The notes under the pieces: generated by a model
Told to the model about the DNA's origin: nothing
The model's database searches: none
What the model saw: the letters and a program-made list of their open reading frames with translations, nothing else
Virus genome (UHGV): UHGV-0212475
Reading direction: 5' to 3' (one strand)
DNA: 38,825 bases
Source: a virus
Shown here: positions 1,472 to 33,623 of the stretch, piece after piece
How the letters are laid out: every line of letters begins with the position of its first letter
Position numbering within the stretch: position 1 is the stretch's first letter
Translations under genes and position numbers: made by a program

Positions 1472-1539
1472 TATTCTACTCCATTTGTAGAAAAATAATA
1501 TAATATAAAAAAACGTATATATAGAATGAGTTGAAACAA
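1472..1539. promoter_or_regulatory. AT-rich core between the inverted iteron clusters (candidate DNA-unwinding element)
   Basis: aaaaataatataatataaaaaaacgtatatatagaatg; more than 80% A+T. Confidence 0.4.
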
Positions 1540-3119: not shown

Positions 3120-3382
3120 AAACCGCATGGTTAGTAAAAGTTGACTATAAAGTTACAACAATGAAAGGCTTCAACTCATATGAGAGCGCACTCAATTATT
3201 ACAATGAAATGGTAGATAAAGTAGAAGAACAAATTGAAGAACGTAACTATGAGAAAATAGAAACATACACTGGTGACGATAAACCACGATTAACAATGTT
3301 CATATACTGGAATGAAGATTACACATTCCGTACAACACTTGGTTTCGTATCAATCAAACAAATTGAATGGGAGGAAGAATAA
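3116..3382 (+). CDS. hypothetical protein (88 aa)
   Basis: ATG at 3116 overlaps the upstream stop (ATGA). Confidence 0.45.
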   Translation: MKTAWLVKVDYKVTTMKGFNSYESALNYYNEMVDKVEEQIEERNYEKIETYTGDDKPRLTMFIYWNEDYTFRTTLGFVSIKQIEWEEE

Positions 3383-3609
3383 TGTTAGTAAGTAAAATGT
3401 ATACAGTAGGTCAATTATTAGACACAGTGTGTTATGGTACAAAGGTTAGACTTGCGAATTATGGGGCAACTGATATTATCACACAATTTATGATGTCAGT
3501 TGATGTTGAATATAAAAAAGAGTTTGAATTGGTAGAACCATATATTGAAAATGAAGTGATGTCAGTAGCAATCACTTCTGACGGAAAACTATATATTGAA
3601 ATAATTTAA
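3382..3609 (+). CDS. hypothetical protein (75 aa)
   Basis: GGGAGGAAGAATA RBS; TAATG overlap. Confidence 0.5.
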   Translation: MLVSKMYTVGQLLDTVCYGTKVRLANYGATDIITQFMMSVDVEYKKEFELVEPYIENEVMSVAITSDGKLYIEII

Positions 3610-3659: not shown

Positions 3660-3683
3660 GTACATAAGATAACAACAAACAAA

Positions 3684-4007
3684 TTGGAGGAATTAAAAAT
3701 GACAAACTACGAAAAAGAATTATTCACTAAAATCTTAACAGGTAATATTAAATATGAAATTGCAGGTAAAGAAAACGAAATGTTAGATGGATATATTACA
3801 AGAGATGAATTTAACGAATATAAAGGAATGCTAAACCTATTAAACGTAGCTAATAAAATTTTTAATGAAGCATACACAACTGGTTATTTCAAATCAAGTA
3901 AAACAGATACAGTTATTGAAGCTAAACACGTGAAATTTTTAGGTAATGAAGAACTTGAAATTATCAAAACAACAGCAGTTTTACATGCAACTGTAGCTTT
4001 TAAATAA
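3684..4007 (+). CDS. hypothetical protein (107 aa)
   Basis: TTGGAGGAATTAAAA RBS. Confidence 0.55.
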   Translation: MEELKMTNYEKELFTKILTGNIKYEIAGKENEMLDGYITRDEFNEYKGMLNLLNVANKIFNEAYTTGYFKSSKTDTVIEAKHVKFLGNEELEIIKTTAVLHATVAFK

Positions 4008-4018
4008 AATTAATAAAA

Positions 4019-4051
4019 GGGGTTGACAAGTTCAACCCCAAGTGATATACT
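4019..4051 (+). promoter_or_regulatory. early promoter TTGACA-17-TATACT with its -35 inside an 8-bp-stem hairpin (GGGGTTGAcaagtTCAACCCC)
   Basis: -35 at 4023-4028, -10 at 4046-4051; identical hairpin copy at 8803-8823. Confidence 0.6.
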
Positions 4052-4080
4052 TAGTTCATAAATTAATAGGGGGAATTAGA

Positions 4081-7957: not shown

Positions 7958-7965
7958 AATAATTT

Positions 7966-8015
7966 AAAGAAAGTTGACTAAAACAGTTGACTTTCTTTTT
8001 TTCGCATGGTATACT
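7966..8015 (+). terminator. terminator-promoter fusion: AAAGAAAGT/ACTTTCTTT hairpin plus T7, with TTGACT (7987-7992) and TATACT (8010-8015)
   Basis: 9-bp stem; U-tract 7996-8002; 17-bp spacer. Confidence 0.6.
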
Positions 8016-8046
8016 TAGTTCATAAGTTAAGAGGAGGAATTAAGAA

Positions 8047-8253
8047 ATGAAACCATATTACGTAGAACTAGAAAACACAATTGAGGAATTAGAAGAATTA
8101 TTTGTTAAAAGATACATGGAACTAATGGAATGTGACGAAGATTGGGCTAGAGAAGTTCAAAAAATGGAATGCAACGCACCACACACTAAAGAAGATGTAG
8201 AGTTGATTCTAAAACAAATGTGTTCATTATGTGGAGTTGATTACACATGCTAA
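8047..8253 (+). CDS. hypothetical acidic protein (68 aa)
   Basis: AGAGGAGGAATTAAGAA RBS; conserved leader TATACTTAGTTCATAAGTTAAG. Confidence 0.45.
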   Translation: MKPYYVELENTIEELEELFVKRYMELMECDEDWAREVQKMECNAPHTKEDVELILKQMCSLCGVDYTC

Positions 8254-8567
8254 GTCAAAAAGAAATACTACTGGATAAACACTATCCAGTAGTATTAAAA
8301 TATTTATTATCTGAACTAAAGAAAGCAGATAAGAAACGAGATAGAGCAACCAAGAAACTAATGGAGATGAATGACAGGGATAACATGCACTCGCACACAA
8401 CGCAAAGATACTGGAAAACATCAGGTGATGTTGAATTTTATGAAAATGAAGTTCGTAAATTGGTTTCAGAAGTAAACTCAATTATTGATATTTATGACAT
8501 TAAAAATAAAATGCACCAAGAACGATTTTATTTTATAAAAAGTGTTGACAAACTTCTAAAGGCATGA
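8247..8567 (+). CDS. hypothetical protein (106 aa)
   Basis: overlaps the upstream gene by 7 nt. Confidence 0.45.
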   Translation: MLSQKEILLDKHYPVVLKYLLSELKKADKKRDRATKKLMEMNDRDNMHSHTTQRYWKTSGDVEFYENEVRKLVSEVNSIIDIYDIKNKMHQERFYFIKSVDKLLKA

Positions 8568-8573
8568 TATACT
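8545..8573 (+). promoter_or_regulatory. early promoter TTGACA-17-TGaTATACT
   Basis: -35 at 8545-8550, -10 at 8568-8573; leader shared with the 8010 promoter. Confidence 0.55.
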
Positions 8574-8603
8574 TAATCCATAAGTTAAGGGAGGAATTAA
8601 ACA

Positions 8604-8792
8604 ATGACAACTAAAGAAAAATACGAAAACAAATTACAAAAATTAAACGAAAGATTTGACAAATTAAAAGCTGAAATGATTGAAGCATACGACAAAGGAG
8701 ATAACGAAAAAGGACATAGATTAAACGACAGATTAGAAAACATGTTAGATGTGATTTTACTAACTGAAATGGTATTAGATACTTTTAAATAA
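8604..8792 (+). CDS. hypothetical coiled-coil protein (62 aa)
   Basis: AGGGAGGAATTAAACA RBS. Confidence 0.45.
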   Translation: MTTKEKYENKLQKLNERFDKLKAEMIEAYDKGDNEKGHRLNDRLENMLDVILLTEMVLDTFK

Positions 8793-8802
8793 AATACTAA
8801 AA

Positions 8803-8835
8803 GGGGTTGACAAGTTCAACCCCTACTAATATAAT
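8803..8835 (+). promoter_or_regulatory. early promoter TTGACA-17-TATAAT with the -35 in the GGGGTTGAcaagtTCAACCCC hairpin (second copy)
   Basis: -35 at 8807-8812, -10 at 8830-8835. Confidence 0.6.
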
Positions 8836-8864
8836 AAATGTATAAATTAAAGGGAGGTTATGAG

Positions 8865-10821: not shown

Positions 10822-12109
10822 GATTGGAAAAATTGAATTATTACCAACGCAAATTGAAGGTATTAAAAAATGGAATACGCACCCTTACGATTTATCAGAT
10901 GCTGGAACAGGTAAGACATTCACTGCATTAGGTGCCTACCTGCAATCTGGATGCAGTAAGTTATTAGTTATCTGTTTAGCACCTAAGGTTGCAGACTTTG
11001 CAGAAGATGGTGCATTGATGGATATTAAGATTACACCACTAAATAAAGGAACAAAGAAAAATAAAGAGTTATTAGCTGAATCAAATAAAGTAGCAATCAG
11101 TTTTGAAAGTGTTTGGCGTATCACTGAATTATTGAAGTGGGTTGATAAAAATACATTCATTATCATTGACGAAGCGCACAAAGTGGGTGTAACCAGTTCC
11201 AAGGTTACAAAGTTTGTAATGAAGTTGACAAAGAAAACCAAGTATGTTAGACTATTAACAGCAACACCAGTTAGTAATGGAAAACTTGAAAATTATTATC
11301 CACAATTGTACATGCTTAATGTATTCCGCAAACCTAAAAAAGAATTTGAAGAACTATTTGTTATTAAGCAAATGCGTCAAATGGGTTCAATGCGATTCAT
11401 GCAAATTGTTGGGTATCAAAACGAGCATTTGTTAAATGACATGATTAATAGCGTTGCGGTGCGTTTTAAGCGTGATAAAGATTACTTCCCAGAAGATTAT
11501 GTATTAAAGACTAAAAAGCCAGCTATGTACGCTAAATTGAAAAAGAATCGCATGTATAAAGCTGATAACGGTGAAGTGATTGAATTAGATAATAGTAGTA
11601 AACTATTTAATGCAATGCGTTGTGTGTCACATGGTTTCTTATTAGGAATCAATAAACAGGTAAGTAAAGAACCATTTGAACGATTGAACCAGATTCTTGA
11701 AACGCACAACGACGAACGAATAGTTATATTTTATAATTACAATGTGGAACTTGAAATGTTGAAACAAGTATTAGACAAGTTAAAACGTCCATATAGTCAA
11801 TATAATGGCGCTAGCAAAGACTTAAAAGCATTTAAAGGTAAATACAACGCTGTTGTGTTAGCACACTACAAATCAGCTTCTACAGGCATTAATGACTTTG
11901 TTATTGCAAATGTGACAATTTACAATTCAATGCCTTTAGAATCAATCAACTATGAACAATCTAAGGCACGCACAGACCGTTATGGTCAAACCAAGAAACC
12001 ACTTTATTATCACATTGTACCTGAAACACCAACTGAAAAAAAGATTTTTGAAACAGTAACAAAGGGTAAAGACTTTACTAATGAAGATATTGAAAACATT
12101 TTAAAATAA
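10814..12109 (+). CDS. SNF2-family helicase (SF2)
   Basis: 431 aa from the ATG at 10814 (GGAGGTGTGGT RBS); motifs I DAGTGKT, II DEAH, III TAT, VI QSKARTDRYGQ. Confidence 0.8.
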   Translation: MTKIGKIELLPTQIEGIKKWNTHPYDLSDAGTGKTFTALGAYLQSGCSKLLVICLAPKVADFAEDGALMDIKITPLNKGTKKNKELLAESNKVAISFESVWRITELLKWVDKNTFIIIDEAHKVGVTSSKVTKFVMKLTKKTKYVRLLTATPVSNGKLENYYPQLYMLNVFRKPKKEFEELFVIKQMRQMGSMRFMQIVGYQNEHLLNDMINSVAVRFKRDKDYFPEDYVLKTKKPAMYAKLKKNRMYKADNGEVIELDNSSKLFNAMRCVSHGFLLGINKQVSKEPFERLNQILETHNDERIVIFYNYNVELEMLKQVLDKLKRPYSQYNGASKDLKAFKGKYNAVVLAHYKSASTGINDFVIANVTIYNSMPLESINYEQSKARTDRYGQTKKPLYYHIVPETPTEKKIFETVTKGKDFTNEDIENILK

Positions 12110-12112
12110 GTA

Positions 12113-12143
12113 TTGACAACTACTATATCACATGATATAGTAG
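12113..12143 (+). promoter_or_regulatory. early promoter TTGACA-17-TATAGT with a palindromic operator (CTACTATAT-N6-ATATAGTAG), third copy
   Basis: -35 at 12113-12118, -10 at 12136-12141; palindrome 12120-12143. Confidence 0.65.
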
Positions 12144-12170
12144 ATACATAATGTAAAGGGAGGATAAATA

Positions 12171-15406: not shown

Positions 15407-16214
15407 AATTGCAATTAAAACCAATGGTGTTCAGTCAATAGAATTTGCAGACTATGAAAAAATACTAAATGACGCACAGAAGTTGGCTGATAAAATGAAA
15501 GAGCAAGAAGTTACAGAAGAAGCAATCAAAGAGAATAAAAAACTAGTAGCTACAATCAATAAACGAATTAGAGAGCTAGACACACAACGTAAACTAGTGA
15601 AAAGTGAAATCATGACACCTTATGACGAATTAAACGAAAAGATTCAGACTTTAAAGGACGTACTAAAGGAAGGTATAGAACATGTCAATGTACAAATTAA
15701 AACGTTCAACGAGCAAGAACAAAAAGAACGTACATTACAGATTGAAGAACTTTTCAATAAGTACCAAGCTTCATATAATGCGCCACAATGGCTATCTTTT
15801 GATAAGTTCATTGCAAAAAATAGAAGTTTAGTAACTAATAAAGCAACGTCACAAAAGACAATCACACAAGCGGTTGTAATGTATTTTGAACTGTTTAAAC
15901 AGGACTATTCAGACTTGAAAGAACAGGTAACAGATAAAGATGACCGCATGGCAATCCTTATTGCATATTCAAGAAATGGTTTCAATATGAGTGAAGCTAT
16001 TGAAGAATTTAAAGAAATGAAGTCAGAACGTGAACGATTGGAAAAGGAACAACAACGAGTAAGAGAAACAAAAGTTCCTGATATTGTAATTTTAACAGGA
16101 AATGAAGATAAAATTGTTGACAAACCAGTTGAAGTGAGTTATACTAACATTAAGGTTAAGACATCAGACTTATCCAAACTAAAAGAATTAGGAATTGAAT
16201 GGGAGGAAATTTAA
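15396..16214 (+). CDS. hypothetical coiled-coil protein (272 aa)
   Basis: GCGGAGGACGAACGCA RBS; long heptad-like Glu/Lys-rich regions. Confidence 0.55.
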   Translation: MEFEIAIKTNGVQSIEFADYEKILNDAQKLADKMKEQEVTEEAIKENKKLVATINKRIRELDTQRKLVKSEIMTPYDELNEKIQTLKDVLKEGIEHVNVQIKTFNEQEQKERTLQIEELFNKYQASYNAPQWLSFDKFIAKNRSLVTNKATSQKTITQAVVMYFELFKQDYSDLKEQVTDKDDRMAILIAYSRNGFNMSEAIEEFKEMKSERERLEKEQQRVRETKVPDIVILTGNEDKIVDKPVEVSYTNIKVKTSDLSKLKELGIEWEEI

Positions 16215-16508
16215 ATGATTATCAAAGAAGATGTATTGCGTTGTACGTTTTTTTCAAAGAATTTAAAAGAAGCAAGTATCACATTTAAAAAACTGGTAGA
16301 GCGTAGAAATAAATACAATGCACCAGAGTTTGACTTTGATGGTGCTAGATTTTATGTTGAAAGTATGGCAGTAGAATATAAAATAAATGAGTTCCACATT
16401 ATGAGGGCGGCGCTTGTAACTATGGATGGTAGCGGAAAATACGCTGGTGGTAGATTCCATCTTGATGTTGACTACAACGCAAACACAATGACATTGGAGG
16501 AAATTTAA
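16215..16508 (+). CDS. hypothetical protein (97 aa)
   Basis: GGGAGGAAATTTAA RBS; flanked by the 16-bp junction repeat GGAGGAAATTTAAATG. Confidence 0.5.
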   Translation: MIIKEDVLRCTFFSKNLKEASITFKKLVERRNKYNAPEFDFDGARFYVESMAVEYKINEFHIMRAALVTMDGSGKYAGGRFHLDVDYNANTMTLEEI

Positions 16509-16754
16509 ATGGGTTTATTTGATTGGACGTTACATGACCTAAATGGTAAACGTGATGTAGAATTAGTAGTTAGTGTTTCACCAATATTACAAGACATTTA
16601 TATTGATGAAGTACCATATTCATTCCATGACTTCAATATGGTTTCAAATGATGATGAAACCATTATTAGAGGTAGTGTATATGAAGATGGTGGGCTGGAA
16701 CTAGTGAATGTATTTCTAAATTGTAAAAAGAAATATATTTTATTTGGAAAATAA
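16509..16754 (+). CDS. hypothetical protein (81 aa)
   Basis: TTGGAGGAAATTTAA RBS. Confidence 0.5.
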   Translation: MGLFDWTLHDLNGKRDVELVVSVSPILQDIYIDEVPYSFHDFNMVSNDDETIIRGSVYEDGGLELVNVFLNCKKKYILFGK

Positions 16755-16831
16755 GGTACACAAGTTAGGGAAAGTATGTTATACTATTTAAGTAGTAAAA
16801 AATAAAAACAAATTATTGGAGGAATTTTATT

Positions 16832-17539
16832 ATGTCAGAAAAAACAAAATTAGTTATCGTTAGTGTAGAGGATTCAGAAATTTCAACTAAATTACAAGTA
16901 GCAAAATTGGATTATTCAGAAATGTATGATGCAGTAGCGTACAAACAACAATACAACAAAGACACAGAAGAATGGGAAGATTCAAAAGAAGCAACTAAAA
17001 AATATAAAGAAGCACTAGAGGTTGCTGGTGGCTCATTTGAAGAAGATAAGGAAATTGAATTATTTGTTGATGAACAATCAGGCAAAGCATACTTTACAGA
17101 AGGTTCTGGATTTATCAAAATTGAGAAACCGCTGGTCAGCTTAAAACGTATTAAGAAAGCACCAATTGTTGCAATTCAAGATTCACCTAAATGTCGTTCA
17201 GTAGTAATTGAACATAAAGGTAAGCACTACGCATTCAACTTCAACACAGGTGTATGGTTAGAAAAGAAAAAACAATTCATTCCAAACAAAGCAAAAATTG
17301 CAAAAGCAAAAGTACGCTTCAATGAAGTATTTGAAGATGTTGGTGTGGATTGGGACAATGCAAAAGAAAAAGCAATTGGACTGGTTGTTGATGTAACAGT
17401 TAACAAAAACCCATTAGACACAACAAGCAACGTGGGTTGGTTAGAAGCGTTACCACTTGACCCAGATGACCAACCAGAACAAAAACCAGTGGTTGAAGGT
17501 AATTCAATTGATATTGGTGATGACGATTTACCATTCTAA
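16832..17539 (+). CDS. putative ssDNA-binding protein (SSB-like acidic C-terminal tail DDDLPF)
   Basis: 235 aa; the C-terminal ...IGDDDLPF matches the canonical SSB protein-interaction tip; N-terminal region is not a recognisable canonical OB-fold SSB by eye. Confidence 0.5.
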   Translation: MSEKTKLVIVSVEDSEISTKLQVAKLDYSEMYDAVAYKQQYNKDTEEWEDSKEATKKYKEALEVAGGSFEEDKEIELFVDEQSGKAYFTEGSGFIKIEKPLVSLKRIKKAPIVAIQDSPKCRSVVIEHKGKHYAFNFNTGVWLEKKKQFIPNKAKIAKAKVRFNEVFEDVGVDWDNAKEKAIGLVVDVTVNKNPLDTTSNVGWLEALPLDPDDQPEQKPVVEGNSIDIGDDDLPF

Positions 17540-17550
17540 AATAAACAAAC

Positions 17551-17586
17551 AAAACCCTTGACATATGTTAGGGGTTTTGTTATTAT
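17551..17586 (+). terminator. terminator-promoter fusion: AAAACCC/GGGGTTTT hairpin with TTGACA (17558-17563) in the loop and TATTAT (17581-17586) after the U-tract
   Basis: stem 7 bp; downstream TTTTGTTATTAT. Confidence 0.55.
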
Positions 17587-17608
17587 ATACATATAGGAGG
17601 GAATAACA

Positions 17609-17833
17609 ATGAAAAACACATTTAATGTAGGACAATACGTAGAACTTAAAAATGACAATCACAATGGTATTGGTAACAAAGGTGATAAAGTTTATATATT
17701 AGCTAAAGTATTTAAGCCAATTGATGGTGTAGAACTTATCTGTAGATTCGCAAACGGAGCCACGGAAGGGTTTTTACAACGTGAGTTGAAATTAGCAACA
17801 AAAAAACTTGACAAAATTGTAGTTGTAAAGTAA
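17609..17833 (+). CDS. hypothetical protein (74 aa)
   Basis: ATAGGAGGGAATAACA RBS. Confidence 0.5.
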   Translation: MKNTFNVGQYVELKNDNHNGIGNKGDKVYILAKVFKPIDGVELICRFANGATEGFLQRELKLATKKLDKIVVVK

Positions 17834-17866
17834 AATAATAGTATAAACAAATTGGAGGAATTAATA
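17831..17866 (+). repeat. 36-bp direct repeat copy 1 (TAAAATAaTAGTATAAACAAATTGGAGGAATTAATA) immediately 5' of dam
   Basis: 35/36 identical to 18593-18628. Confidence 0.85.
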
Positions 17867-18595
17867 ATGAAATATGTAGGAAGTAAAAATAGACTTAGTA
17901 AAGAGTTAGCACCAATTATTCAATCATACATTAACGATAATACAGTGGCATATATTGAACCTTTTGTAGGTGGAGCAAATATGATTGATAAAATAAAACA
18001 TCATAATAAAATTGGAAGTGACCTACACAAAGAATTAATAGCTTTGCATAAGTTCAATAGAGATTATAGTGATACTTTACCAAATACAATCACAGAAGAA
18101 CAGTATTTAAACGTTAAAAATAACAAGGAGTCATATAGTGATTATATAGTTGGTTTAGTTGGTTTTTGTGCAACGTTTGGGGCTAAATACTTTGGTGGAT
18201 ATGCTAGAGGATATAAAGCTGACGGAGTCACACCACGTGACTTACCTAATGAAGCAATAAGAAACTTACAAAAACAAGCACCAAACATTCAAGGGATTAA
18301 GTTTGAATGTAAGTCATTTACTGATTATAACCCTTCTGATTATAAAAATTGCGTGTTCTACTTAGACCCACCATATAGAAAAACATTATCATATTCAACC
18401 GGTGGTTTTCCATATGAAGAATTTGATAAATGGGCTATAGAGTTAGCAAAAAACAACACTGTATTAATAAGTGAATATGAATTACCTGAAGATAAATTTG
18501 AATGCATCTGGAGTAAAGATGTTAAAGTTGGGATAAGTGGTCAAGGAGATATAAAAAATAAAAAAAGAGTTGAAAAATTATTTAAAGTACGTTAA
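17867..18595 (+). CDS. dam: DNA N6-adenine methyltransferase, D12/Dam family
   Basis: 242 aa from the ATG at 17867; N-terminal KYVGSKNRL, EPFVGGANM and DPPY motifs. Confidence 0.85.
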   Translation: MKYVGSKNRLSKELAPIIQSYINDNTVAYIEPFVGGANMIDKIKHHNKIGSDLHKELIALHKFNRDYSDTLPNTITEEQYLNVKNNKESYSDYIVGLVGFCATFGAKYFGGYARGYKADGVTPRDLPNEAIRNLQKQAPNIQGIKFECKSFTDYNPSDYKNCVFYLDPPYRKTLSYSTGGFPYEEFDKWAIELAKNNTVLISEYELPEDKFECIWSKDVKVGISGQGDIKNKKRVEKLFKVR

Positions 18596-18628
18596 AATAC
18601 TAGTATAAACAAATTGGAGGAATTAATA
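18593..18628 (+). repeat. 36-bp direct repeat copy 2 immediately 3' of dam and 5' of polB
   Basis: TAAAATAcTAGTATAAACAAATTGGAGGAATTAATA. Confidence 0.85.
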
Positions 18629-18629
18629 C

Positions 18630-20921
18630 ATGAAGAACATTGCAGAATTTAAAAAGGCACCAGAACTAGCTGAAAAATTATTGGAGGTATTCAGCAATTT
18701 AAAAGGTAATTCACGAAGTCTTGACCCTATGAGAGCTGGTCAACATGATGTGGTTGTCATTGAATCTACCAAAAAGTTATCAGCAAAAGGAAAAGAAATG
18801 AAAGTAGTTAAAATGCGTTCATTAGAAGATGGTAGGGACGTTACAAGCTACATCATGAAGTTTCGCAAATATGACTGGGACAAATGGAAAAATGTTGAAG
18901 TTGGTGACCGTTTATTAATTGACTTGAAATTTAGCAATGGTTTTGCTACAGTCAAACCTATTAGAAGTATTTCAAAAGGTAATGAAACACCGTTCAAACC
19001 AAGCGAAGCATTAACAAAGCAAACCATTTTATTATTTGATATTGAGATTTTTAAACATGACAGTTTATTTGTATTTCGTGATTACTTTACCAAAGAATGG
19101 TTTATCATTAATAATGACCTTGACGAATTACGCAAGTTTTACCTTGAATACCGTGATTCAATGTTTATTGGGTATAACAATGCGTCATATGATAACAATG
19201 TAATGCGTGGATATTTACAAGGCAAAAACGCTTATCAGATGTCTAAGACAATTATTGAATCAGATAACAGGGGTCTAGTTTACAAGATGTTTGATAGTCA
19301 TAAAACACCGCTGTTTGGAATGGACCTGTACCAAGATAACAAAGGTTTTAGCTTAAAAGAGCATTCAGCTTTCTTAGGTATTAACATTAAAGAAACAGAA
19401 GTAGATTTTGACATGGATAGACCATTGACAGATGAAGAAAAAGAGAAAAATGTTGCATATTGCATGAATGATGTGTTAGCAACTGAAAAACGTTTTGAGC
19501 AAAACATTGGTATGTTATTGGCTAAAGCAACCATTGCTTTAATGTTTGATATGGATAAGACAGACCTATTACAAACCAATGCTAATTTAACAGCTAAGTT
19601 ACTTGGTGCAACTAAACAAGAAGTTAGACAAGACTTGACAGACCCATTAGAATTAGATAAACGATTAAATATCAATACAAAAGAGATTGCAGAAGCATAC
19701 TTGAACCATGAGTTTGAACTAAATGAAGATGGTAAATTGAACGTGTCATTAGAGTACACGGACGACGATGGATATACAATGATTTTTGGTAGTGGTGGTG
19801 TACATGGTGCTAAATCTAGTTACATTCACATTGGAATGTTCCCAATGCGTGACTGGGGTTCACTATATCCAAACACAATGGAACAATTTAATTTACTATC
19901 AAGAAATATTCCAAAGGATAAAATTCACCGCTACGGTGACTTACTAAAACAACGTATGGACGCCAAGTATTCAGGTGAAGAAGTGGCAAACATTAAAGGT
20001 GTAGAAGTGCCAACATATGTAATGATTAACGGTATCAAGTTACCATTGAACACTAAGTTTGGAGCAAGTGGTGCGCAGTTCAATGGTTTATATGACCCAA
20101 GAAACCAATTCTTAGTTTGTGCAACTGGTCAATTGATTATGACAAACATGTATGAATTAATTAAAGGTAAAGCACAATTCATTCAATCAAATACAGATGC
20201 ACATGCATATATTCCAAACAGTGAAGCAGATGATAAAGCTATTGATGAAGCATTAGATGAATTTGCTAACAAGATTGGGCTAACATTGGATAAGGATATG
20301 TTCCGTGAAATTTGGCAAAAAGATGTAAATAACTACATTGCAGTACAACCAAATGGAAAAGTAAAAGTAAAAGGCGCTATTGGCTTAACAGGTGGAATGA
20401 AAGTGTCAAAAGCTATTGTATCTAATGCATTCATCAATTATCTGGTAGCTGGTAAAGATTATAAAGAGTTTATCAATGAATGTAATGAACTAAGACAGTT
20501 TCAAATTATTACTAAAACAGGTTGGACCTTTGATAGAACGGTTGCACGTGATAGTGAAGGTAATGAGTTCAACGCACAGAAGGTTAACCGTGTGTTTGCA
20601 GTAAAAGATAAAACTAATGCAGTAGAATTATTTAAGGTCAAAGAAGGTCAATTATTAGATATTGAAGCAGATGAATTTAAGGATAACATTTCATATACAA
20701 AAGGATTGGCAAACGCACCCGAATACTACACAATCAGTAATGAAGCGATTGGTGAAGGTATTACAATTGATGAAGTTGACAAACAATACTATATTGACCA
20801 AGTAGAAGATACGCTTGAACTTTGGTTTGGTGAGAACTGGAAAGAACGTATTGAACAAGCGCATCATGAACGTAATGCACAAGGATTCAAACCAGTGGAA
20901 GTAAAAAATTATATTGATTAG
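18630..20921 (+). CDS. family-B DNA polymerase with 3'-5' exonuclease domain
   Basis: 763 aa; Exo I LLFDIEIF, motif A DWGSLYPN (DxxSLYPS), motif B K-x3-NTKFG, motif C-like QSNTDAH. Confidence 0.8.
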   Translation: MKNIAEFKKAPELAEKLLEVFSNLKGNSRSLDPMRAGQHDVVVIESTKKLSAKGKEMKVVKMRSLEDGRDVTSYIMKFRKYDWDKWKNVEVGDRLLIDLKFSNGFATVKPIRSISKGNETPFKPSEALTKQTILLFDIEIFKHDSLFVFRDYFTKEWFIINNDLDELRKFYLEYRDSMFIGYNNASYDNNVMRGYLQGKNAYQMSKTIIESDNRGLVYKMFDSHKTPLFGMDLYQDNKGFSLKEHSAFLGINIKETEVDFDMDRPLTDEEKEKNVAYCMNDVLATEKRFEQNIGMLLAKATIALMFDMDKTDLLQTNANLTAKLLGATKQEVRQDLTDPLELDKRLNINTKEIAEAYLNHEFELNEDGKLNVSLEYTDDDGYTMIFGSGGVHGAKSSYIHIGMFPMRDWGSLYPNTMEQFNLLSRNIPKDKIHRYGDLLKQRMDAKYSGEEVANIKGVEVPTYVMINGIKLPLNTKFGASGAQFNGLYDPRNQFLVCATGQLIMTNMYELIKGKAQFIQSNTDAHAYIPNSEADDKAIDEALDEFANKIGLTLDKDMFREIWQKDVNNYIAVQPNGKVKVKGAIGLTGGMKVSKAIVSNAFINYLVAGKDYKEFINECNELRQFQIITKTGWTFDRTVARDSEGNEFNAQKVNRVFAVKDKTNAVELFKVKEGQLLDIEADEFKDNISYTKGLANAPEYYTISNEAIGEGITIDEVDKQYYIDQVEDTLELWFGENWKERIEQAHHERNAQGFKPVEVKNYID

Positions 20922-21199: not shown

Positions 21200-21427
21200 A
21201 TGATTACAGTATATACTAAAAACAATTGCATGCCTTGCAAAATGACAAAACGTAAATTACAAGAGTTAGGAGTTAGCTATAAAGAAATTAATGTAGATGA
21301 AGATTTGAGTGCATTAGAATATTTAATGGAATGTGGATTTCGTTCTTTACCTGTTGTGTTCAATAATGATGGTCCTATTGTAATTGGTGGATATGCACCA
21401 AACATCTTAGAAACCATTGTTTCATAG
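21200..21427 (+). CDS. nrdH: NrdH-like glutaredoxin
   Basis: 75 aa; CMPC redox motif near the N-terminus; TAGGAGGAATTTAA RBS. Confidence 0.75.
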   Translation: MITVYTKNNCMPCKMTKRKLQELGVSYKEINVDEDLSALEYLMECGFRSLPVVFNNDGPIVIGGYAPNILETIVS

Positions 21428-21431
21428 GAGC

Positions 21432-21516
21432 ATTCTAAGCACGTTTCAGATTCAAAGTAAGGTGATTATACATTAAAACGCAAATAAAGACACCCAATAT
21501 AGGGTGTCTTTTTGTT
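21432..21516. repeat. about 65-bp direct repeat copy A plus bidirectional intrinsic terminator (AAAGACACCC-aatata-GGGTGTCTTT); right boundary of the lysis cassette
   Basis: ATTCTAAGCacGTTTCAGATTcAAAGTAAGGTGATTATacATTAAAAcGCAAATAAAgACACC is about 90% identical to 23204-23267; U-tracts on both strands. Confidence 0.8.
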
Positions 21517-22614
21517 TTATACTAATGTTCCCCACGTGTTGTTAGGGTCGCCGTCATCTGGTCCAATTGGTAAGTAAATACGTGTACCATTAGTGTCTGT
21601 TCCACCAATCCACACATAACCATCACCAACTGTTATTTCATCATACTTGAATACTGCACCTTGTTTCCATGTTCCATATACTGGCGCATATACGCTTGGT
21701 CGTCCACTGCGTAAAATAATAGCGCCAACACCAATTGTAAACTGATTGACTGGTTTACTTGGTTTTGGTGGGAACTTAGTGTTAAGGTCCTCTAAGTCGC
21801 CAGCGTTAGCATATGTTACAAATTTACCACTGTTTTCAATCTTATAAGGATTGACTGCACCTTGTTTCACTTCTGTAATTGTACCAACTTGGGTCCAAAG
21901 ACTTGCACCAGCTACGAATGGTACCACTGGTCCATTGTATGATTTGTGACCGTTATAAATATAAACATTTTGACCTTTTTTGAATGTCTTTGGTTTGCTT
22001 GGTGTTGGTTTTACTGATTCACCAGATACCCCATTGGCTAAGTCTTTAGCTAGTTGCGCTTTACTAATTCCCATTTCTGCTAAGTAACCATATGGGTCTG
22101 TGTGGTCACCCCATACATAATCTGATACCCATTTGTGAGAGATAACACCTTTTTCCCAAACAGAAGAACCTTGGTCAAGTGTCATAGGAATACCAAACTT
22201 TTTACCCATGTCCCTTGTATAATCAATATATGCTTTATAGTTCTTTTTGAACAACTCTTTATCATGTGTGTGTTGTAACTCAATTTGAATAGGTGCGTAT
22301 GGGTTTGCATTACCAGCACCCCATGAAATATTGCCCTCTGGTGCAATCTTATAAACAATACCACCGTCACCAATGATAGCTGTTGTATGTGCATTAAACC
22401 AGTTATTTTTCATGTACGTTGCTTCATTTCGTCCTGTGGCACGTTCATTGGCAGTTTCGTGTAAGATAATCTTATTAGGTACTGCAACCTGTCCTGAACC
22501 TTCCCAAGGGCTTAAATTGAACTCGTTATTAACTTCATATGCGTTAGCTGTTTGCATTCCAGCAAACAAACCAATGGTTGCTAATGCACCAAATAAAATA
22601 CCTTTTAATTTCAT
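21517..22614 (-). CDS. endolysin: Sec signal peptide + N-acetylmuramoyl-L-alanine amidase (amidase_2/PGRP) + 2x SH3b
   Basis: 365 aa; N-terminal MKLKGILFGALATIGLFAGMQTANA (signal peptide-like, predicted cleavage after ANA); amidase_2-like HETANERATG...ELQHTH; C-terminal SH3b-like repeats; AGGAGGA RBS. Confidence 0.85.
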   Translation of the reverse strand: MKLKGILFGALATIGLFAGMQTANAYEVNNEFNLSPWEGSGQVAVPNKIILHETANERATGRNEATYMKNNWFNAHTTAIIGDGGIVYKIAPEGNISWGAGNANPYAPIQIELQHTHDKELFKKNYKAYIDYTRDMGKKFGIPMTLDQGSSVWEKGVISHKWVSDYVWGDHTDPYGYLAEMGISKAQLAKDLANGVSGESVKPTPSKPKTFKKGQNVYIYNGHKSYNGPVVPFVAGASLWTQVGTITEVKQGAVNPYKIENSGKFVTYANAGDLEDLNTKFPPKPSKPVNQFTIGVGAIILRSGRPSVYAPVYGTWKQGAVFKYDEITVGDGYVWIGGTDTNGTRIYLPIGPDDGDPNNTWGTLV

Positions 22615-23110: not shown

Positions 23111-23203
23111 GCCTACATCTCCCTATCTTATTATAATCACCGCCTTTCAGCTACTATTATAGTATAGCATTTAAATAAGGGAAATAGTGTGCTTCACAGG
23201 ATG

Positions 23204-23285
23204 ATTCTAAGCGTTTTTCAGATTAAAAGTAAGGTGATTATGTATTAAAAAGCAAATAAAAAACACCCCAAAAAGAGGTGTTTTT
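23204..23285. repeat. about 65-bp direct repeat copy B plus intrinsic terminator (AAAAACACC-ccaaaaaga-GGTGTTTTT) 3' of tal; left boundary of the lysis cassette
   Basis: homologous to 21432-21494. Confidence 0.8.
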
Positions 23286-23288
23286 ACC

Positions 23289-25604
23289 TTATTTGAACAC
23301 TTTTGTTATTTGACAAGCTGGTACACTTGATATGAAGCTGTACTTATTTGCTTCAACTGAAATACGTATACCAACAAACTGGTCTTTTTTAAGCTCTAAT
23401 ACAAATGAACCTGTAGAAATCCATCTGAAACTTAGTGAGCTACCACCATTATTACCAATTGCATGTAAATACCCAGCACCACCATTTGTTATCAATCCCC
23501 CTATATCATCTGCAACAATCATTTCTGTATATACATATCGTGATTGTGTGCTTGTTCCATCTCCTTGATGTCGCAGTGTAACATCAAATTTTAGTATGCA
23601 ATCCTCTTTTACCTGCATTGCATCACGATTAGGATTAAACCATATTAATTTATTATGTTCAGCTTCTGATGTGTTGAAGTCTGTACCACTAAATGGTCCA
23701 ATTGGTAATAGGGTTCTTGTTGGTGATTTATCTAAACTTGCACCAGCACTATAAAAGGCGCTAAATTGCTTTTTATTATTTACTGTGATACCTTCTGCTT
23801 CTAACTTAGTGTTGTTAGTTAGAACACCACCTTCAATCTTTTGGATTGACATGTTACCACTACCAATTGTTGTATTGGTTTGTATGTTTTTAGTGTAGTC
23901 ATTTGTATCAATTGTCATTGAGCCATCGCTTAGTGTTGCGATGTCTTGATGTTCTACTGTTGTGCCTGTTGCTAGGTCATATGACTTTGATGTGTTTGTT
24001 AGTCTTGCGTATTGAATAAGTGTGTTTTCTTCACTTCTTAGTTTCTCTGTTCCGCCTGTTACTGTTACAAATGTGTCATTATCTTGGAATATTTTACCAT
24101 CACCAATTGTTGTAGTCCCAACACGTCTTGCAGTTCCACCAATGATAGCTTCTGTTTTATTCCATGTGTTGATAAATTCAGAACCATTGATAATTGAACC
24201 ATTGATGTTTACTGCGTTTAATGTTTCAATGTTAAGCACAGATTGGTCAATTGTTTGGTCTTGCCATTGACCACCTTTATACACCTTGTATGCACTAACC
24301 TTCTGTTCTGGCTCTGGTTCTGCTAATGGTGCTACACTTCTAAATAGTGTAGTACGTTGTACTGATTCTTGAACCCACCAGATATCATTTTCTTTTGGCA
24401 ACTCTGGTTCGTCTGGTTGTACAAAAACACGTGGTACACTATTAAATTTCGCTGTTGTTTCATTGTCAATTTTAATTTGAATATCTCGCAACTGTTCAGC
24501 AATTCCAGATTGTAAACGTACAAAATTAGATAGAACTGCTTCACAAGTGTTTGATTCATAATTAAATGTCAATTGTTGAACACGTGAGCTAAGATATAGT
24601 TTTTCGTTTTCGTCAACTAGTTCAACGGTATCACCTACCTGCAAAATGTCAGGAATGTTTGCAATGTCTACAATGTAATTCGTTACTGGTTGACTGTATT
24701 TTTTAAGATGTGAAACCACGTTATTTACTAGCGTTGTTTTGTTAGTTGTTTCATATGTCTTATATTGTACAAAATAATGTGAATTGTTGTTTTCACGTGA
24801 CCATTGCTTGATGTTCTGCGTATCACGTATAATACCATCACTCTTGTTTAATACAAAGCGTCCTTCTGGGTCCGTCCATGTAAAGCCTTTTAAATTTATA
24901 GGTGTATCCTTACCTTCTTCTGTTCCACCTGTTGCATAGATAGCATTCACAAGTTCGTAAATATCTTCTTCAACTACGATTGAGTGGATATCTCTATTCA
25001 CATACATTCTGTGAAAATCTGTTGTACCACGTTTTTTCTTGATGTCAATGTAGCGTTGTTTTAATTCGTTACCTACAAAGTCAAAACTAAATTCTAGTTC
25101 TGCATTATCAAATTGAGTTGCTACTGATTGAATGCGTTCTAATGCTGTTGCTTCACCTTCCCATTCCAGTTTTCGTGTAAGGTTTGGTATTTCATTTACA
25201 CCAATCTTAAAACCACTGTCAGAAGTGAATTTATTAATGTAATACGCAATGTTGTAAGCCTTGTCTGCTTTGTAGTCACTTACTGTTTCATTTAATAAGT
25301 CCAGTCCAGCATCTTCACATTCTAATGTTCTAACCTGTGTGAGTGGATTGTGTGTTGCTTTTAATATTGTCATCCACTCATATTTACCATTCAAGTCAAT
25401 ATACAGTACATAGTTACCAACTTTGAAAAAGTCTTTTGCTTGGTCTGTTGTTGATGGTGTGAAGCTGATTTCCATTGTCATTCTACGTGAAGATGTTTCA
25501 AGAGTAGAAACATCTTCCGCAGAAATTACTTTAAATGGTGTATCACCGTTTGTGCTTGTTACTGTTTTTAATTGAAAAGTTCTGTCTGTGATATAAAAGT
25601 CCAT
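23289..25604 (-). CDS. tail-associated lysin / baseplate hub (Tal) with extended C-terminal receptor-binding region
   Basis: 771 aa; N-terminus MDFYITDRTFQLK... resembles Tal/gp27-like (prophage-tail) proteins; GGAGGAAT RBS; immediately follows dit. Confidence 0.75.
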   Translation of the reverse strand: MDFYITDRTFQLKTVTSTNGDTPFKVISAEDVSTLETSSRRMTMEISFTPSTTDQAKDFFKVGNYVLYIDLNGKYEWMTILKATHNPLTQVRTLECEDAGLDLLNETVSDYKADKAYNIAYYINKFTSDSGFKIGVNEIPNLTRKLEWEGEATALERIQSVATQFDNAELEFSFDFVGNELKQRYIDIKKKRGTTDFHRMYVNRDIHSIVVEEDIYELVNAIYATGGTEEGKDTPINLKGFTWTDPEGRFVLNKSDGIIRDTQNIKQWSRENNNSHYFVQYKTYETTNKTTLVNNVVSHLKKYSQPVTNYIVDIANIPDILQVGDTVELVDENEKLYLSSRVQQLTFNYESNTCEAVLSNFVRLQSGIAEQLRDIQIKIDNETTAKFNSVPRVFVQPDEPELPKENDIWWVQESVQRTTLFRSVAPLAEPEPEQKVSAYKVYKGGQWQDQTIDQSVLNIETLNAVNINGSIINGSEFINTWNKTEAIIGGTARRVGTTTIGDGKIFQDNDTFVTVTGGTEKLRSEENTLIQYARLTNTSKSYDLATGTTVEHQDIATLSDGSMTIDTNDYTKNIQTNTTIGSGNMSIQKIEGGVLTNNTKLEAEGITVNNKKQFSAFYSAGASLDKSPTRTLLPIGPFSGTDFNTSEAEHNKLIWFNPNRDAMQVKEDCILKFDVTLRHQGDGTSTQSRYVYTEMIVADDIGGLITNGGAGYLHAIGNNGGSSLSFRWISTGSFVLELKKDQFVGIRISVEANKYSFISSVPACQITKVFK

Positions 25605-32405: not shown

Positions 32406-33623
32406 CTAGGGTGTAGTAATGTTGTTTATGAATTTTCCAGCCGCTGGGTCTACTACTTTAGCATCAAAACGCATGAAGATTGCTAAGTATTGACCATAAA
32501 TTTCATGGTCAATCCAACGTGCAGTAGTTTCGGCACGATTGAAGAATGTTGCAAATGCCACTGGGTCACCTAAGAATGCTACTTTAGCACCTTTTTCACC
32601 TAACATTTCATCTTTCAACACTGTTACTGGAACACCAAACAATGATTTTCCAGACTGTGCTGTAATATCAGTTTGTAATAAGTAGCGTCCTTCACCGTCT
32701 TTCATGATGTCAACTGCGTTGTAGAATGATTGAGTAACAATCAATTCCAATCCGTAAGCTGGGTCGAAACCAGTGTTAATCTGTGTTTTGATGTCATCTA
32801 ATGATGTAGCGGCTACTGCTGAAGCTGTTTTTAACAAGTTAGCTAAAACAAAGTTAGTTGTGTTTAAACCTTGGCGTTGTACTGAATCAGCAATAATTCC
32901 AGCTAAGTCGTCCGCTGAATCATCTAATGATTCTTGTGATACAACAATTTGACCACGATAAGTTGATACATTGTAAGGAACTTCTTCAAATTCAGGTTTT
33001 GCCAATGCTGGGTTTTTTGCCAACTCTTCAACTGTTACCATTTTTGCAGTAGTTGATTTCAAGATTGGGTATTTACCGCCAGATGTTTTAACTTTGATAC
33101 TGTTCACTTTATTACGTAAGTCAACAACTGTGTCTGGTAATTTACGTGCTTTAGTGATAATATCTTCTGGGATAATTGCTTCTGCGTCTGTTGATTTAAC
33201 TTGTCCGTCATCAACCGCACGTGTTTCATTAAATGATTTTACGCTAGTTGATTTTGAAGTTACGTAGTCTAAAAACGCACGTTGTTCTGTTACTGGCTCT
33301 GCTAACTCTTTACCATTGATTTTTACTTTCTCCATGTCAATATCTTCTCCTTTTGCGTTCTCAATTGAACGTTCTTCTTTTTTTGGTTCTTCCTTTGGTT
33401 CGTCTTTGACTTCGTCTTTAGGTTCGTCCTTTGGTTCTTCTTTAGGCTCTTCCTTTTTGACTTCGTCTTTAGGTGCTTCTGCTTTATCTTCTGCACGTTC
33501 TTCGTTTTCAGCTGGTGTTTCATCTTTCAAAGCTTCTAACTGTTCAATAACTTTTTTAGCTTCGTCAAGTTTACCTTCTGCCAACAAAGATTTTGCTTGC
33601 GCTTCTAACTCTGCCTTGTTCAT
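32406..33623 (-). CDS. major capsid protein, HK97 fold, with acidic Lys/Glu/Pro-rich N-terminal delta/scaffold region
   Basis: 405 aa; the central and C-terminal region (about residues 150-405) shows an HK97-family capsid pattern by eye; AAAGGAG RBS; follows the prohead protease. Confidence 0.75.
   Translation of the reverse strand: MNKAELEAQAKSLLAEGKLDEAKKVIEQLEALKDETPAENEERAEDKAEAPKDEVKKEEPKEEPKDEPKDEVKDEPKEEPKKEERSIENAKGEDIDMEKVKINGKELAEPVTEQRAFLDYVTSKSTSVKSFNETRAVDDGQVKSTDAEAIIPEDIITKARKLPDTVVDLRNKVNSIKVKTSGGKYPILKSTTAKMVTVEELAKNPALAKPEFEEVPYNVSTYRGQIVVSQESLDDSADDLAGIIADSVQRQGLNTTNFVLANLLKTASAVAATSLDDIKTQINTGFDPAYGLELIVTQSFYNAVDIMKDGEGRYLLQTDITAQSGKSLFGVPVTVLKDEMLGEKGAKVAFLGDPVAFATFFNRAETTARWIDHEIYGQYLAIFMRFDAKVVDPAAGKFINNITTP

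What the first reader, a model, noticed from the sequence alone, without database searches (positions are those of the whole stretch)
17831..18628. Orphan Dam methyltransferase gene is an exact insertion flanked by 36-bp direct repeats (duplicated stop-to-RBS junction)
The sequences TAAAATA(A/C)TAGTATAAACAAATTGGAGGAATTAATA immediately before the dam ATG (17831-17866) and immediately before the polB ATG (18593-18628) are 35/36 identical, so dam occupies a duplicated intergenic junction upstream of polB. That is a hallmark of a moron or cassette gain. An orphan D12 N6-adenine MTase (likely GATC-type) in a lytic-type phage is most simply an anti-restriction device. The repeat would let the cassette be lost by homologous deletion, so presence/absence polymorphism among relatives is expected. 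A similar 16-bp junction duplication (GGAGGAAATTTAAATG at 16202-16217 and 16496-16511) flanks ORF 16215..16508.
Basis: partly seen in the sequence, partly recalled or inferred. Interest (0 to 1): 0.55.

Follow-up and report, generated by a model that had tools for sequence, protein, structure and literature searches.

The report
Repeat-flanked methyltransferase gene cassette in Enterococcus phage
A DNA methyltransferase gene sits just upstream of the DNA polymerase gene of an Enterococcus phage, flanked by two copies of the short gene-junction sequence; many relatives lack the gene and have exactly one copy, but the usual explanation (protecting GATC sites from restriction) fails because this phage has no GATC sites.

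Summary
Window 17831-17866 and 18593-18628 are 35/36 identical and 762 nt apart, where chance gives none. The window is an Efquatrovirus, a lytic Enterococcus faecalis siphovirus.

The predicted polymorphism exists. Sixteen of 26 IMG/VR relatives, and about 60% of the GenBank relatives listed in a spread sample (e.g. G01, phiSHEF11), lack dam. They carry one junction, and their orf74-to-polB gap is 35-38 nt against 799 nt here. Carriers and non-carriers interleave on the polB tree.

At least four divergent dam alleles (74-96% aa) occupy this one slot, mixed in the tree with alleles from other Enterococcus phage lineages. In a Saphexavirus and in an E. faecium-phage lineage, dam again sits between duplicated copies of that recipient's own junction. 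The downstream copy there starts like this window's junction and ends like the recipient's.

I read this as a single-gene cassette moved by recombination at short gene-junction homologies. It is akin to T4-type "PeSL" modular shuffling, and it is not a classical moron.

The GATC anti-restriction idea is not supported. The window has 0 GATC (66-122 expected), as do dam-less relatives. The protein scores below the NCBIfam Dam-family cut-off, yet it is under purifying selection (dN/dS 0.05-0.14). Its target is unknown.

The second, 16-nt duplication around ORF 16215-16508 is also confirmed.

The parts
17558..17586 (+). Sigma-70-like promoter (TTGACA-17-TATTAT with TG) inside a stem-loop (AAAACCC...GGGGTTTT). 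It is the likely start of the orf74-dam-polB transcript.
   Evidence: 11/12 match; sequence. The orthologous site in phage Max is annotated as an overlapping promoter and terminator. Function is inferred, not shown.
17609..17833 (+). orf74, a conserved 74-aa protein of unknown function (PHROG 9882). It is the left neighbour of the insertion slot.
   Evidence: It is present in all relatives with and without dam.
17808..17836 (+). Promoter-like TTGACA-17-TAAAAT that overlaps the orf74 3' end and the first 6 nt of the junction.
   Evidence: 11/12 match. TTGACA is invariant in 29 unique relatives, including the E. faecium-phage lineage. It is also present in dam-less phages. Function untested.
17831..17866 (+). 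Upstream copy of junction J: orf74 stop codon, unstructured leader and Shine-Dalgarno GGAGG, ending at the dam ATG.
   Evidence: Minimum free energy 0 kcal/mol.
17867..18595 (+). dam, a 242-aa alpha-class (D12) DPPY DNA methyltransferase. It is an orphan and its target is unknown.
   Evidence: Pfam PF02086, 53.3 bits against a cut-off of 22. DPPY at 167-170 and EPFVGGAN at 31-38 are conserved. dN/dS is 0.05-0.14.
18593..18629 (+). Downstream copy of junction J: dam stop codon, leader and Shine-Dalgarno sequence for polB. This copy also follows dam in other phage genera.
18630..20921 (+). DNA polymerase gene (763 aa), the right neighbour of the slot.
   Evidence: PHROG 1252, E = 2e-172. No Pfam hit. 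Relatives annotate it as a B-family polymerase.
16202..16511 (+). Second cassette: ORF 16215-16508 (97 aa, PHROG 20271) between two exact copies of GGAGGAAATTTAAATG (16202-16217 and 16496-16511).
   Evidence: only 2 copies. The ORF is absent, with a single junction, in G01, Sigurd, L074 and L093, and other ORFs follow the same junction in further relatives.
3677..3702 (+). Partial third copy of the J core (AAACAAATTGGAGGAATTAAAAATGA) behind an early promoter.
   Evidence: families D10 and D11.

Best explanation
The 762-bp unit (the dam ORF plus one copy of the junction) is a single-gene accessory cassette. It sits in a hyperplastic slot between orf74 and the DNA polymerase gene of an Efquatrovirus. 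The junction J is the stop-to-start linker: stop codon, an unstructured A/T-rich leader and the Shine-Dalgarno sequence. Having J on both sides gives dam and polB the same translation-initiation region. It also provides 33-36 nt of direct-repeat homology. Inferred steps: recombination between the two J copies deletes the cassette exactly, leaving one J and possibly releasing a dam+J circle. The reverse reaction, or crossovers between a donor's two J copies and a recipient's single J-like leader during co-infection, inserts the cassette and duplicates the recipient's junction. Shown by comparison: the cassette has been gained, lost and swapped many times within the genus. It has also been transplanted, with its 3' leader, into at least two other lineages, and probably a third (A40), whose empty site was not examined. 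The encoded protein is a functional alpha-class DPPY DNA methyltransferase without a partner nuclease. It is most likely a counter-defence enzyme that modifies a motif other than GATC, or it acts on non-phage DNA; this functional part is inference only.
For: 1. The repeat is real and non-random.

2. Empty sites exist. Sixteen of 26 IMG/VR relatives lack dam and have one J, with an orf74-stop-to-polB-ATG gap of 35-38 nt. The gap is 786-802 nt in most dam carriers (1034 nt in two that carry an extra ORF) and 799 nt here, so the difference is 762. In a spread sample of GenBank phages, about 60% of the listed relatives cover 64% of the query with a ~1240-nt span, i.e. they lack dam.

3. Carriers and non-carriers interleave on the polB tree. 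The window's nearest polB relatives (99% aa) lack dam.

4. The dam genes at this one site fall into at least 4 clades (74-96% aa). These clades interleave with dam genes of an E. cecorum phage (88%), E. faecium phages (84%), glutaredoxin-site copies (80%) and a Saphexavirus. A Saphexavirus dam is 89.8% nt identical to that of Efquatrovirus LM99.

5. The J-type 3' leader follows dam in A40 and in Saphexavirus EFap05-1, where it precedes unrelated genes.

6. Two further empty/occupied pairs show the same pattern. For the Saphexaviruses fHoEfa06 (empty) and EFap05-1 (occupied), and for the E. faecium lineage L099 (empty) and L010/L020 (occupied), the recipient's own junction is duplicated around dam. 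The downstream copy is a hybrid of J (5' part) and the recipient junction (3' part).

7. Identity between allele classes drops inside dam and jumps back to 97-98% exactly at the 3' end of dam and J.

8. In vB_EfaS_159-like phages a 59-aa ORF is inserted inside the upstream J, so the slot is re-used.

9. ORF 16215-16508 shows the same pattern with a 16-nt junction.

10. A precedent exists: recombination between short regulatory cassettes deletes and inserts ORFs and forms mini-circles in T4-type phages (PMC2839356).

11. Enzyme: Pfam D12 hit, conserved DPPY and FxGxG motifs, and dN/dS of 0.05-0.14, similar to polB at 0.03-0.10.
Against: No recombination event was observed directly; everything rests on comparison of finished genomes.

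The two hybrid junctions in the Saphexavirus do not share one crossover point. A simple single-crossover circle integration therefore does not fit that case, and two crossovers or later changes are needed.

Exchange among close relatives could proceed through the long homologous flanks (orf74 and polB) without any role for J.

Within-genome identity of the two J copies (mean 0.886) is no higher than cross-genome upstream-versus-downstream identity (0.893). J may therefore simply be a conserved functional leader at both positions.

No phage single-strand-annealing recombinase was recognised among the neighbouring genes scanned.

The methylation target and any counter-defence role are untested.
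Confidence: 0.68

Rival explanations
1. GATC-specific Dam as a self-protective anti-restriction device. The enzyme would methylate GATC on phage DNA and block MboI/DpnII-type host nucleases.
For: There is a D12-class fold signature, and relatives annotate the gene as Dam. The profile's best solved-structure match is E. coli Dam, at 1.5e-9. Enterococcus phages of other lineages that also carry this gene do contain GATC sites, at roughly a third to three-quarters of expectation, so a GATC enzyme could be useful there.
Against: The window has 0 GATC (66-122 expected). Efquatroviruses with and without dam have equally few GATC sites. The score against TIGR00571 is below half its cut-off. The Dam DNA-recognition hairpin region aligns poorly. 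An N4-cytosine methyltransferase matches nearly as well (PMC8616854). Strong purifying selection continues among alleles resident in GATC-free genomes.
Confidence: 0.12
2. J is only a shared functional leader, with no role in recombination. The two copies are alike because each gene needs the same optimal promoter -10, leader and ribosome-binding site. The exact boundaries reflect selection among random illegitimate recombinants.
For: J is completely unstructured and carries a consensus Shine-Dalgarno sequence. Its core recurs at 3677-3702. TTGACA-17-TAAAAT-type sites precede both copies, and TTGACA is invariant in relatives. There is no within-genome homogenisation of the two copies. Duplicating the recipient's junction is the only way to keep both genes translated.
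Against: The first ~14 nt of J (TAAAATAATAGTAT) are not needed for ribosome binding, yet they are duplicated and travel with dam into other genera. The hybrid downstream junctions switch within shared sequence. Empty sites are exact to the nucleotide in dozens of genomes.
Confidence: 0.15
3. dam with two J copies is ancestral at this site, and the polymorphism is due only to repeated deletions, with no gains.
For: Direct repeats favour deletion. The SANTOR1 copy appears frameshifted at a poly-A run, which suggests decay.
Against: More distant relatives are dam-less: L095 and L090/91, dArtagnan and the polB slot of RG1, and, by alignment coverage only, most other E. faecium-lineage phages. Several divergent allele clades occupy the slot and interleave with other genera. 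Rare carriers in the Saphexavirus (5 of 118 matching records) and in the E. faecium lineage have hybrid junctions that indicate gain.
Confidence: 0.05

Closest known systems
PeSL (promoter-early stem-loop) mobile regulatory cassettes of T4-type phages (Arbiol et al. 2010, PMC2839356; PMC4122927)
   Same: Short conserved regulatory sequences flank non-essential ORFs in hyperplastic regions. Recombination between them explains exact insertions, deletions and replacements between close relatives, and can release circles that carry one ORF plus one repeat.
   Different: J is a stop-to-start translational junction (leader plus Shine-Dalgarno sequence). It has no stem-loop or terminator and at best a weak promoter. 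It is only 33-36 nt long, lies in a Gram-positive siphovirus, and its 3' copy is carried into other genera. True PeSL-like promoter/stem-loop composites do occur elsewhere in the window (e.g. 3999-4073, 8783-8857, 17549-17590).
Morons of lambdoid and other phages (Hendrix/Juhala concept; from my own knowledge)
   Same: An extra gene lies between two genes that are adjacent in relatives. It is dispensable and probably benefits the phage in some hosts.
   Different: There is no own terminator and no cassette-specific promoter. It is translated from a duplicated copy of the neighbour's leader inside an operon, in a strictly lytic phage.
Phage orphan DNA methyltransferases (T4 Dam, P1 Dmt, lactococcal 936-phage methyltransferases; from my own knowledge and as cited in PMC13517437)
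   Same: An alpha-class DPPY enzyme without a cognate nuclease, in a phage replication module.
   Different: It scores below the Dam-family cut-off. The carrying genome has no GATC, so the classical substrate is absent and the specificity is unknown.
Botstein-type modular exchange at conserved 'linker' sequences at gene boundaries (from my own knowledge)
   Same: Crossovers map to short conserved sequences at gene boundaries, so whole genes are swapped.
   Different: Here the same linker is present on both sides of one gene, which makes insertion duplicative and excision exact.

Membership tests
D12 / alpha-class exocyclic-amino DNA methyltransferase (Pfam PF02086) | Profile match above the curated threshold | tested here: met
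   53.3 bits against a cut-off of 22, E = 4.3e-14. PHROG 56 'DNA methyltransferase', E = 5.9e-41.
D12 / alpha-class exocyclic-amino DNA methyltransferase (Pfam PF02086) | Catalytic DPPY motif and N-terminal AdoMet-binding FxGxG motif, in alpha-class order | tested here: met
   D167-P-P169-Y170 and E31-P-F-V-G-G-A-N38. D167, P169, Y170, E31, P32, F33, G35, G36 and N38 are invariant in 21 homologues; the other residues vary.
Dam family, GATC-specific (NCBIfam TIGR00571) | Score at or above the family's curated cut-off | tested here: not met
   57.8 bits against a cut-off of 114.85. The equivalog NF008152 gives 23.6 against 441.
Dam family, GATC-specific (NCBIfam TIGR00571) | GATC-contacting hairpin residues (e.g. 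E. coli Dam R124, P134; from my own knowledge) | tested here: inconclusive
   The profile alignment to 2G1P in that segment has low posterior confidence and no matching residues. The AlphaFold model was too poor to use (pLDDT 51.9).
Dam family, GATC-specific (NCBIfam TIGR00571) | Methylates GATC | not testable with these tools
   The genome offers no GATC substrate. This needs methylome sequencing or heterologous expression.
Orphan (solitary) methyltransferase | No cognate restriction endonuclease gene adjacent | tested here: met
   The neighbours are orf74 (PHROG 9882, unknown function, 74 aa) and the DNA polymerase. The same holds in four other genomic contexts.
Moron | Inserted between two genes that are adjacent in related phages | tested here: met
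   orf74 and polB are adjacent in 16 of 26 relatives.
Moron | Own promoter | tested here: inconclusive
   TTGACA-17-TAAAAT lies at 17808-17836, but the same site exists in dam-less phages, so it is not cassette-borne.
Moron | Own terminator | tested here: not met
   No terminator-like site lies between 17600 and 21480 on the + strand.
PeSL-type mobile regulatory cassette | The same short regulatory motif on both sides of a variable ORF, with exact presence/absence in relatives | tested here: met
PeSL-type mobile regulatory cassette | The motif combines a strong early promoter with a terminator stem-loop | tested here: not met
   J folds to between 0 and -1.2 kcal/mol, weaker than the mean of its shuffles. 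The promoter match uses the upstream coding sequence.
PeSL-type mobile regulatory cassette | Circular excision products | not testable with these tools
   This needs outward-facing PCR or read-level data from lysates.

The most novel reading that the evidence does not exclude
J-dam-J is a self-transplanting gene cassette with a portable leader. Because it carries the same leader on both sides, it can excise exactly and re-insert upstream of any gene that has a similar leader. It then brings a ready ribosome-binding site for whatever gene lies downstream, and this lets one methyltransferase circulate among at least three Enterococcus phage lineages, and probably a fourth. In addition, the enzyme is kept by selection in genomes that lack GATC. 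It would therefore have a non-GATC target or act on host DNA, for example against a methylation-reading defence such as BREX, or to mark host DNA.
Probability: 0.3. Interest if true: 0.6.

Novelty: new variant of a known kind. Interest (0 to 1): 0.45.

Why it matters
This is a clean natural example, resolved to the nucleotide, of how single accessory genes enter and leave lytic phage genomes. The crossover sites lie in the translation-initiation junction, and there are three independent pairs of empty and occupied sites in three phage lineages.

That matters for phage therapy, because Efquatroviruses and Saphexaviruses are used against E. faecalis. A counter-defence gene can appear or disappear, or jump between cocktail members, through 30-40 nt of homology.

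It also corrects a routine annotation. 'Dam' in these phages cannot be protecting GATC sites, so its real target, and the host defence it answers, remain to be found.

Tried and rejected
1. Motif hunt for the methyltransferase target. I compared all 4-6-mers between ~230 kb of dam-carrying and ~273 kb of dam-less relatives. CTGAAG stood out: 25 vs 2 in that comparison. Per genome and outside dam it was 16 vs 3 (which adds one more dam-less locus, ~290 kb). It did not replicate in the other halves of the same genomes (0.54 vs 0.29 per 10 kb, p = 0.25), so I rejected it as a multiple-testing artefact. ACCAGG and CCAGG failed likewise.

2. Structure route to specificity. The permitted shallow alignment A2 gave a pLDDT of 51.9, too poor for a fold search, so none was run.

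3. PQ519978.1, labelled 'IME_EF3' and lacking dam, looked like a possible laboratory deletion of dam-carrying IME_EF3. It is only 87-98% identical to KF728385.2, so it is a different phage and gives no real-time evidence.

4. Concerted evolution of the two J copies was not seen.

5. An RNA element in J is ruled out at this sensitivity: no Rfam match and no structure.

6. Direct repeats at other indel sites. The apparent 16-46-nt overlaps in BLAST chaining at 10027/10227, 8845/9320 and similar sites are not true repeats in the window. Only the dam and orf97 sites were confirmed there. The boundaries at 8003-8037 and 8561-8595 look like repeated promoter-leaders by eye, but I did not test this.

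7. A phage recombinase was not recognised among the replication-module ORFs I scanned against Pfam and PHROGs.

8. Literature: I found no paper describing this junction duplication. The Abitsa paper only suggests that the Dam-like enzyme 'may protect' the phage.

Full report
**What the window is.** Megablast of 16800-19800 finds 116 phage records, almost all Enterococcus phages, at up to 93% identity (IME_EF3, LY0322, IME-EF4 and others). The annotated records belong to the genus Efquatrovirus, which are lytic siphoviruses of about 41 kb. The Dam protein is 100% identical to a GenBank 'MAG TPA: DNA adenine methylase [Caudoviricetes sp.]' entry.

The finding lies in the rightward replication module. 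The gene order is a primase-polymerase, a nucleotide kinase, an HNH endonuclease, a metallo-hydrolase, a DUF1351 protein, orf97, orf81, a 235-aa protein, orf74, dam, the DNA polymerase, a small ORF and glutaredoxin. A bidirectional terminator at 21486-21511 closes the module.

**Checking the observation.** They are 35/36 identical and 762 nt apart, and a 3-mismatch search finds no others, with zero expected. Each copy runs from the stop codon of the upstream gene to the start codon of the next gene. The only correction is one extra C before the polB ATG, which is at 18630.

The 20-nt 3' core (AAACAAATTGGAGGAATTAA) has a third copy at 3677-3702. The 16-nt repeat GGAGGAAATTTAAATG around ORF 16215-16508 is exact and occurs only twice.

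**The predicted polymorphism exists.** I ran a sensitive BLASTN of 17300-19300. About 40% of the relatives listed in a spread sample align end to end. The remaining ~60% (G01, phiSHEF11, Ef212, KEF1, EnP, EfaCPT1, AUEF3 and others) align in two pieces that cover 64% of the query and span about 1240 nt, which is 2001 minus 762.

Read directly, dam-less G01 and Sigurd have a single junction, TAA[A/G]ATA[G/A]TA[G/C]TATAAACAAATTGGAGGAATTAAACAT, followed by the polB ATG.

Among 26 close relatives fetched from IMG/VR with the polymerase as query, 16 lack dam. Their orf74-stop-to-polB-ATG distance is 35-38 nt. Ten carry dam, at 786-802 nt, or 1034 nt in two that hold an extra ORF.

On a polB neighbour-joining tree the two states interleave. 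The window's nearest polB relatives (99% aa identity) are dam-less.

**The slot is re-used and the cassette travels.** The dam genes at this one site fall into at least four clades, 74-96% aa identical to the window. In the tree they interleave with dam genes from an E. cecorum phage (A40, 88%), from E. faecium phages (84%), from copies placed upstream of glutaredoxin (about 80%) and from a Saphexavirus.

Between allele classes, nucleotide identity falls to 55-73% inside dam and returns to 97-98% exactly at the last ~35 nt of dam plus J.

In A40 and in Saphexavirus EFap05-1, dam is followed by the same J-type leader (TAAACTAGTA..ATAAACAAATTGGAGGAA). There it precedes unrelated genes.

For the Saphexavirus an empty site is available (fHoEfa06). 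Its native junction, AAAACAAATTACGGGGAGGGAATTTAAT followed by ATG, appears on both sides of dam in EFap05-1. The downstream copy is J-like at its 5' end and native at its 3' end. That dam is 89.8% nt identical to the dam of Efquatrovirus LM99, and only 5 of 118 matching records cover at least 80% of the query and so carry dam. This points to a recent transfer from an Efquatrovirus.

In the sister E. faecium-phage lineage, L099 has the empty slot promoter-J_B-polB (sequence); dArtagnan and RG1 also lack dam upstream of polB (annotation). The occupied state (L010, L020; vB_Efm8_KEN21 aligns over the full query) has J_B (TATATTCAAACGAGAGAGGAAGTAA) on both sides. Its downstream copy begins with the Efquatrovirus-like tail TAATATA[A/G]TAG.

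This gives three independent pairs of empty and occupied sites. In each, the recipient's own junction is duplicated. In the two lineages other than this window's, the downstream copy is a hybrid.

In vB_EfaS_159-like phages a further 59-aa ORF is inserted inside the upstream J, splitting it.

ORF 16215-16508 shows the same behaviour. It is absent with a single junction in G01, Sigurd, L074 and L093, and other ORFs follow the same junction in further relatives.

The replication module contains more than a dozen further indel sites between relatives.

**Mechanism.** The anatomy and the comparisons are shown. The recombination steps are inferred.

Two direct copies of J permit exact deletion, giving a single-J genome and formally a dam+J circle. 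A cassette bounded by J on both sides can recombine with any J-like leader and thereby duplicate it. The hybrid downstream junctions are what such crossovers predict.

In the Saphexavirus the upstream and downstream copies do not share one switch point. That case therefore needs two crossovers, or later change, and a single Campbell-type integration does not fit.

Selection must contribute too, because only recombinants that keep a ribosome-binding site for both genes are viable.

Within genomes the two copies are no more alike than copies from different genomes (0.886 vs 0.893). J is therefore conserved at both positions and is not being homogenised.

J is unstructured and matches no Rfam family.

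A TTGACA-17-TAAAAT site overlaps the orf74 3' end and J. Its TTGACA is invariant in 29 relatives, even where the encoded residue changes, so a weak internal promoter is possible but untested. The better promoter candidate is at 17558-17586, inside a stem-loop.

The closest described system is PeSL-mediated modular shuffling in T4-type phages, for which mini-circles were shown experimentally (PMC2839356).

**The enzyme.** The protein passes the Pfam D12 threshold and has the DPPY and FxGxG motifs. It is an orphan in every context examined.

dN/dS among Efquatrovirus-resident alleles is 0.05-0.14, like the polymerase at 0.03-0.10, so it is functional there. One copy (SANTOR1) appears frameshifted at a poly-A run.

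The window contains no GATC, against 66 expected by Markov model and 122 by base composition. It also has no GGCC, one CCGG and eight TCGA. Relatives with and without dam are equally GATC-free in both halves of the genome.

The protein scores 57.8 bits against the NCBIfam Dam family, whose cut-off is 114.85. A profile built from 21 homologues matches E. coli Dam at 1.5e-9 and the N4-cytosine methyltransferase M.CbeI (7M6B) at 1.8e-7 over its full length (PMC8616854).

A GATC-specific self-protective role is therefore not tenable for this genome, and the target is unknown. A k-mer contrast suggested CTGAAG, but that failed replication.

**Verdict.** It extends to cross-genus mobility and recurrent junction duplication. 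The functional interpretation (GATC Dam, anti-restriction, moron) is not supported as stated.

The gene itself is already annotated in many relatives. I did not find the junction architecture and its recurrence described in the papers I could search.

I rate it a new variant of a known kind, with moderate interest.

Noticed in passing
window 1-38825: There is extreme avoidance of short palindromes: 0 GATC, 0 GGCC, 1 CCGG and 8 TCGA. Most 6-bp palindromes containing C or G are absent, and GAATTC occurs once against 13 expected. The GATC, GGCC, CCGG and TCGA avoidance is shared by relatives with or without dam.
   Followed up: partly
window 21418-21520 and 23190-23292: A 103-nt direct repeat (75% identity), each copy ending in a G+C-rich terminator hairpin, brackets the lysis module (endolysin 21517-22614 on the minus strand plus small ORFs). 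Relatives show replacements starting at 21520. This may be another repeat-bounded exchangeable module.
   Followed up: no
window 3999-4073, 8783-8857, 7963-8037, 8521-8595, 12089-12163, 17549-17590: [quoted passage not shown] AAAAGGGGTTGACAAGTTCAACCCC...TATACT), followed by a shared leader (CATAAGATAA..GGAGGAA). These are PeSL-like composites. Some relatives lack 8050-8563, apparently with breakpoints in these repeats.
   Followed up: partly
L007 2233-2500 (IMG/VR contig 3300045988_009927); also L008: A 59-aa ORF with its own Shine-Dalgarno sequence is inserted inside the upstream junction copy, splitting it into TAAGATAGTAGTATAAACA and CAAATTGGAGGAATTAAATAT. GenBank phages vB_EfaS_159, LM99 and SZ1 also show a ~210-240-nt extra segment in this region; in LM99 the extra ORF lies upstream of orf74, not inside the junction.
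   Followed up: partly
L012 (IME-EFm5) 2501-3445; L011, L013, L021: In some E. faecium phages dam sits behind its own promoter upstream of glutaredoxin, and its last codons are fused to the glutaredoxin ribosome-binding site (..KVKGGK*). In IME-EFm5 the reading frame runs on to 314 aa, and the record annotates a thioredoxin domain under the match. RG1 carries dam at a second position in its genome (~15.5-16.2 kb), just downstream of polB, while its polB slot is empty.
   Followed up: no
L032 / L096 (phage SANTOR1), dam 3' end: Two single-A losses in the AAAAAATAAAAAAA run truncate dam before the conserved RVEKLF C-terminus. This is either decay of the gene or a homopolymer sequencing error.
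   Followed up: no
window 1331-1477: A cluster of GTGTTCTCG-type 9-11-nt repeats is probably the replication-origin iterons described for phage Abitsa (PMC13517437).
   Followed up: no
window 33363-33500 (minus-strand ORF 32406-33623): A 12-nt periodic repeat (7 overlapping copies) lies inside a coding region and encodes a short repeated peptide tract in a 405-aa minus-strand ORF of unknown function.
   Followed up: no
window 18630-20921: The 763-aa DNA polymerase has no Pfam-A or NCBIfam hit at E < 0.01 and is recognised only by PHROG 1252. It is a divergent polymerase family.
   Followed up: no
GenBank PQ519978.1 (L185): This record is labelled 'UNVERIFIED Enterococcus phage IME_EF3 partial genome', but it is only 87-98% identical to IME_EF3 (KF728385.2) and lacks dam. 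It is probably mislabelled.
   Followed up: yes
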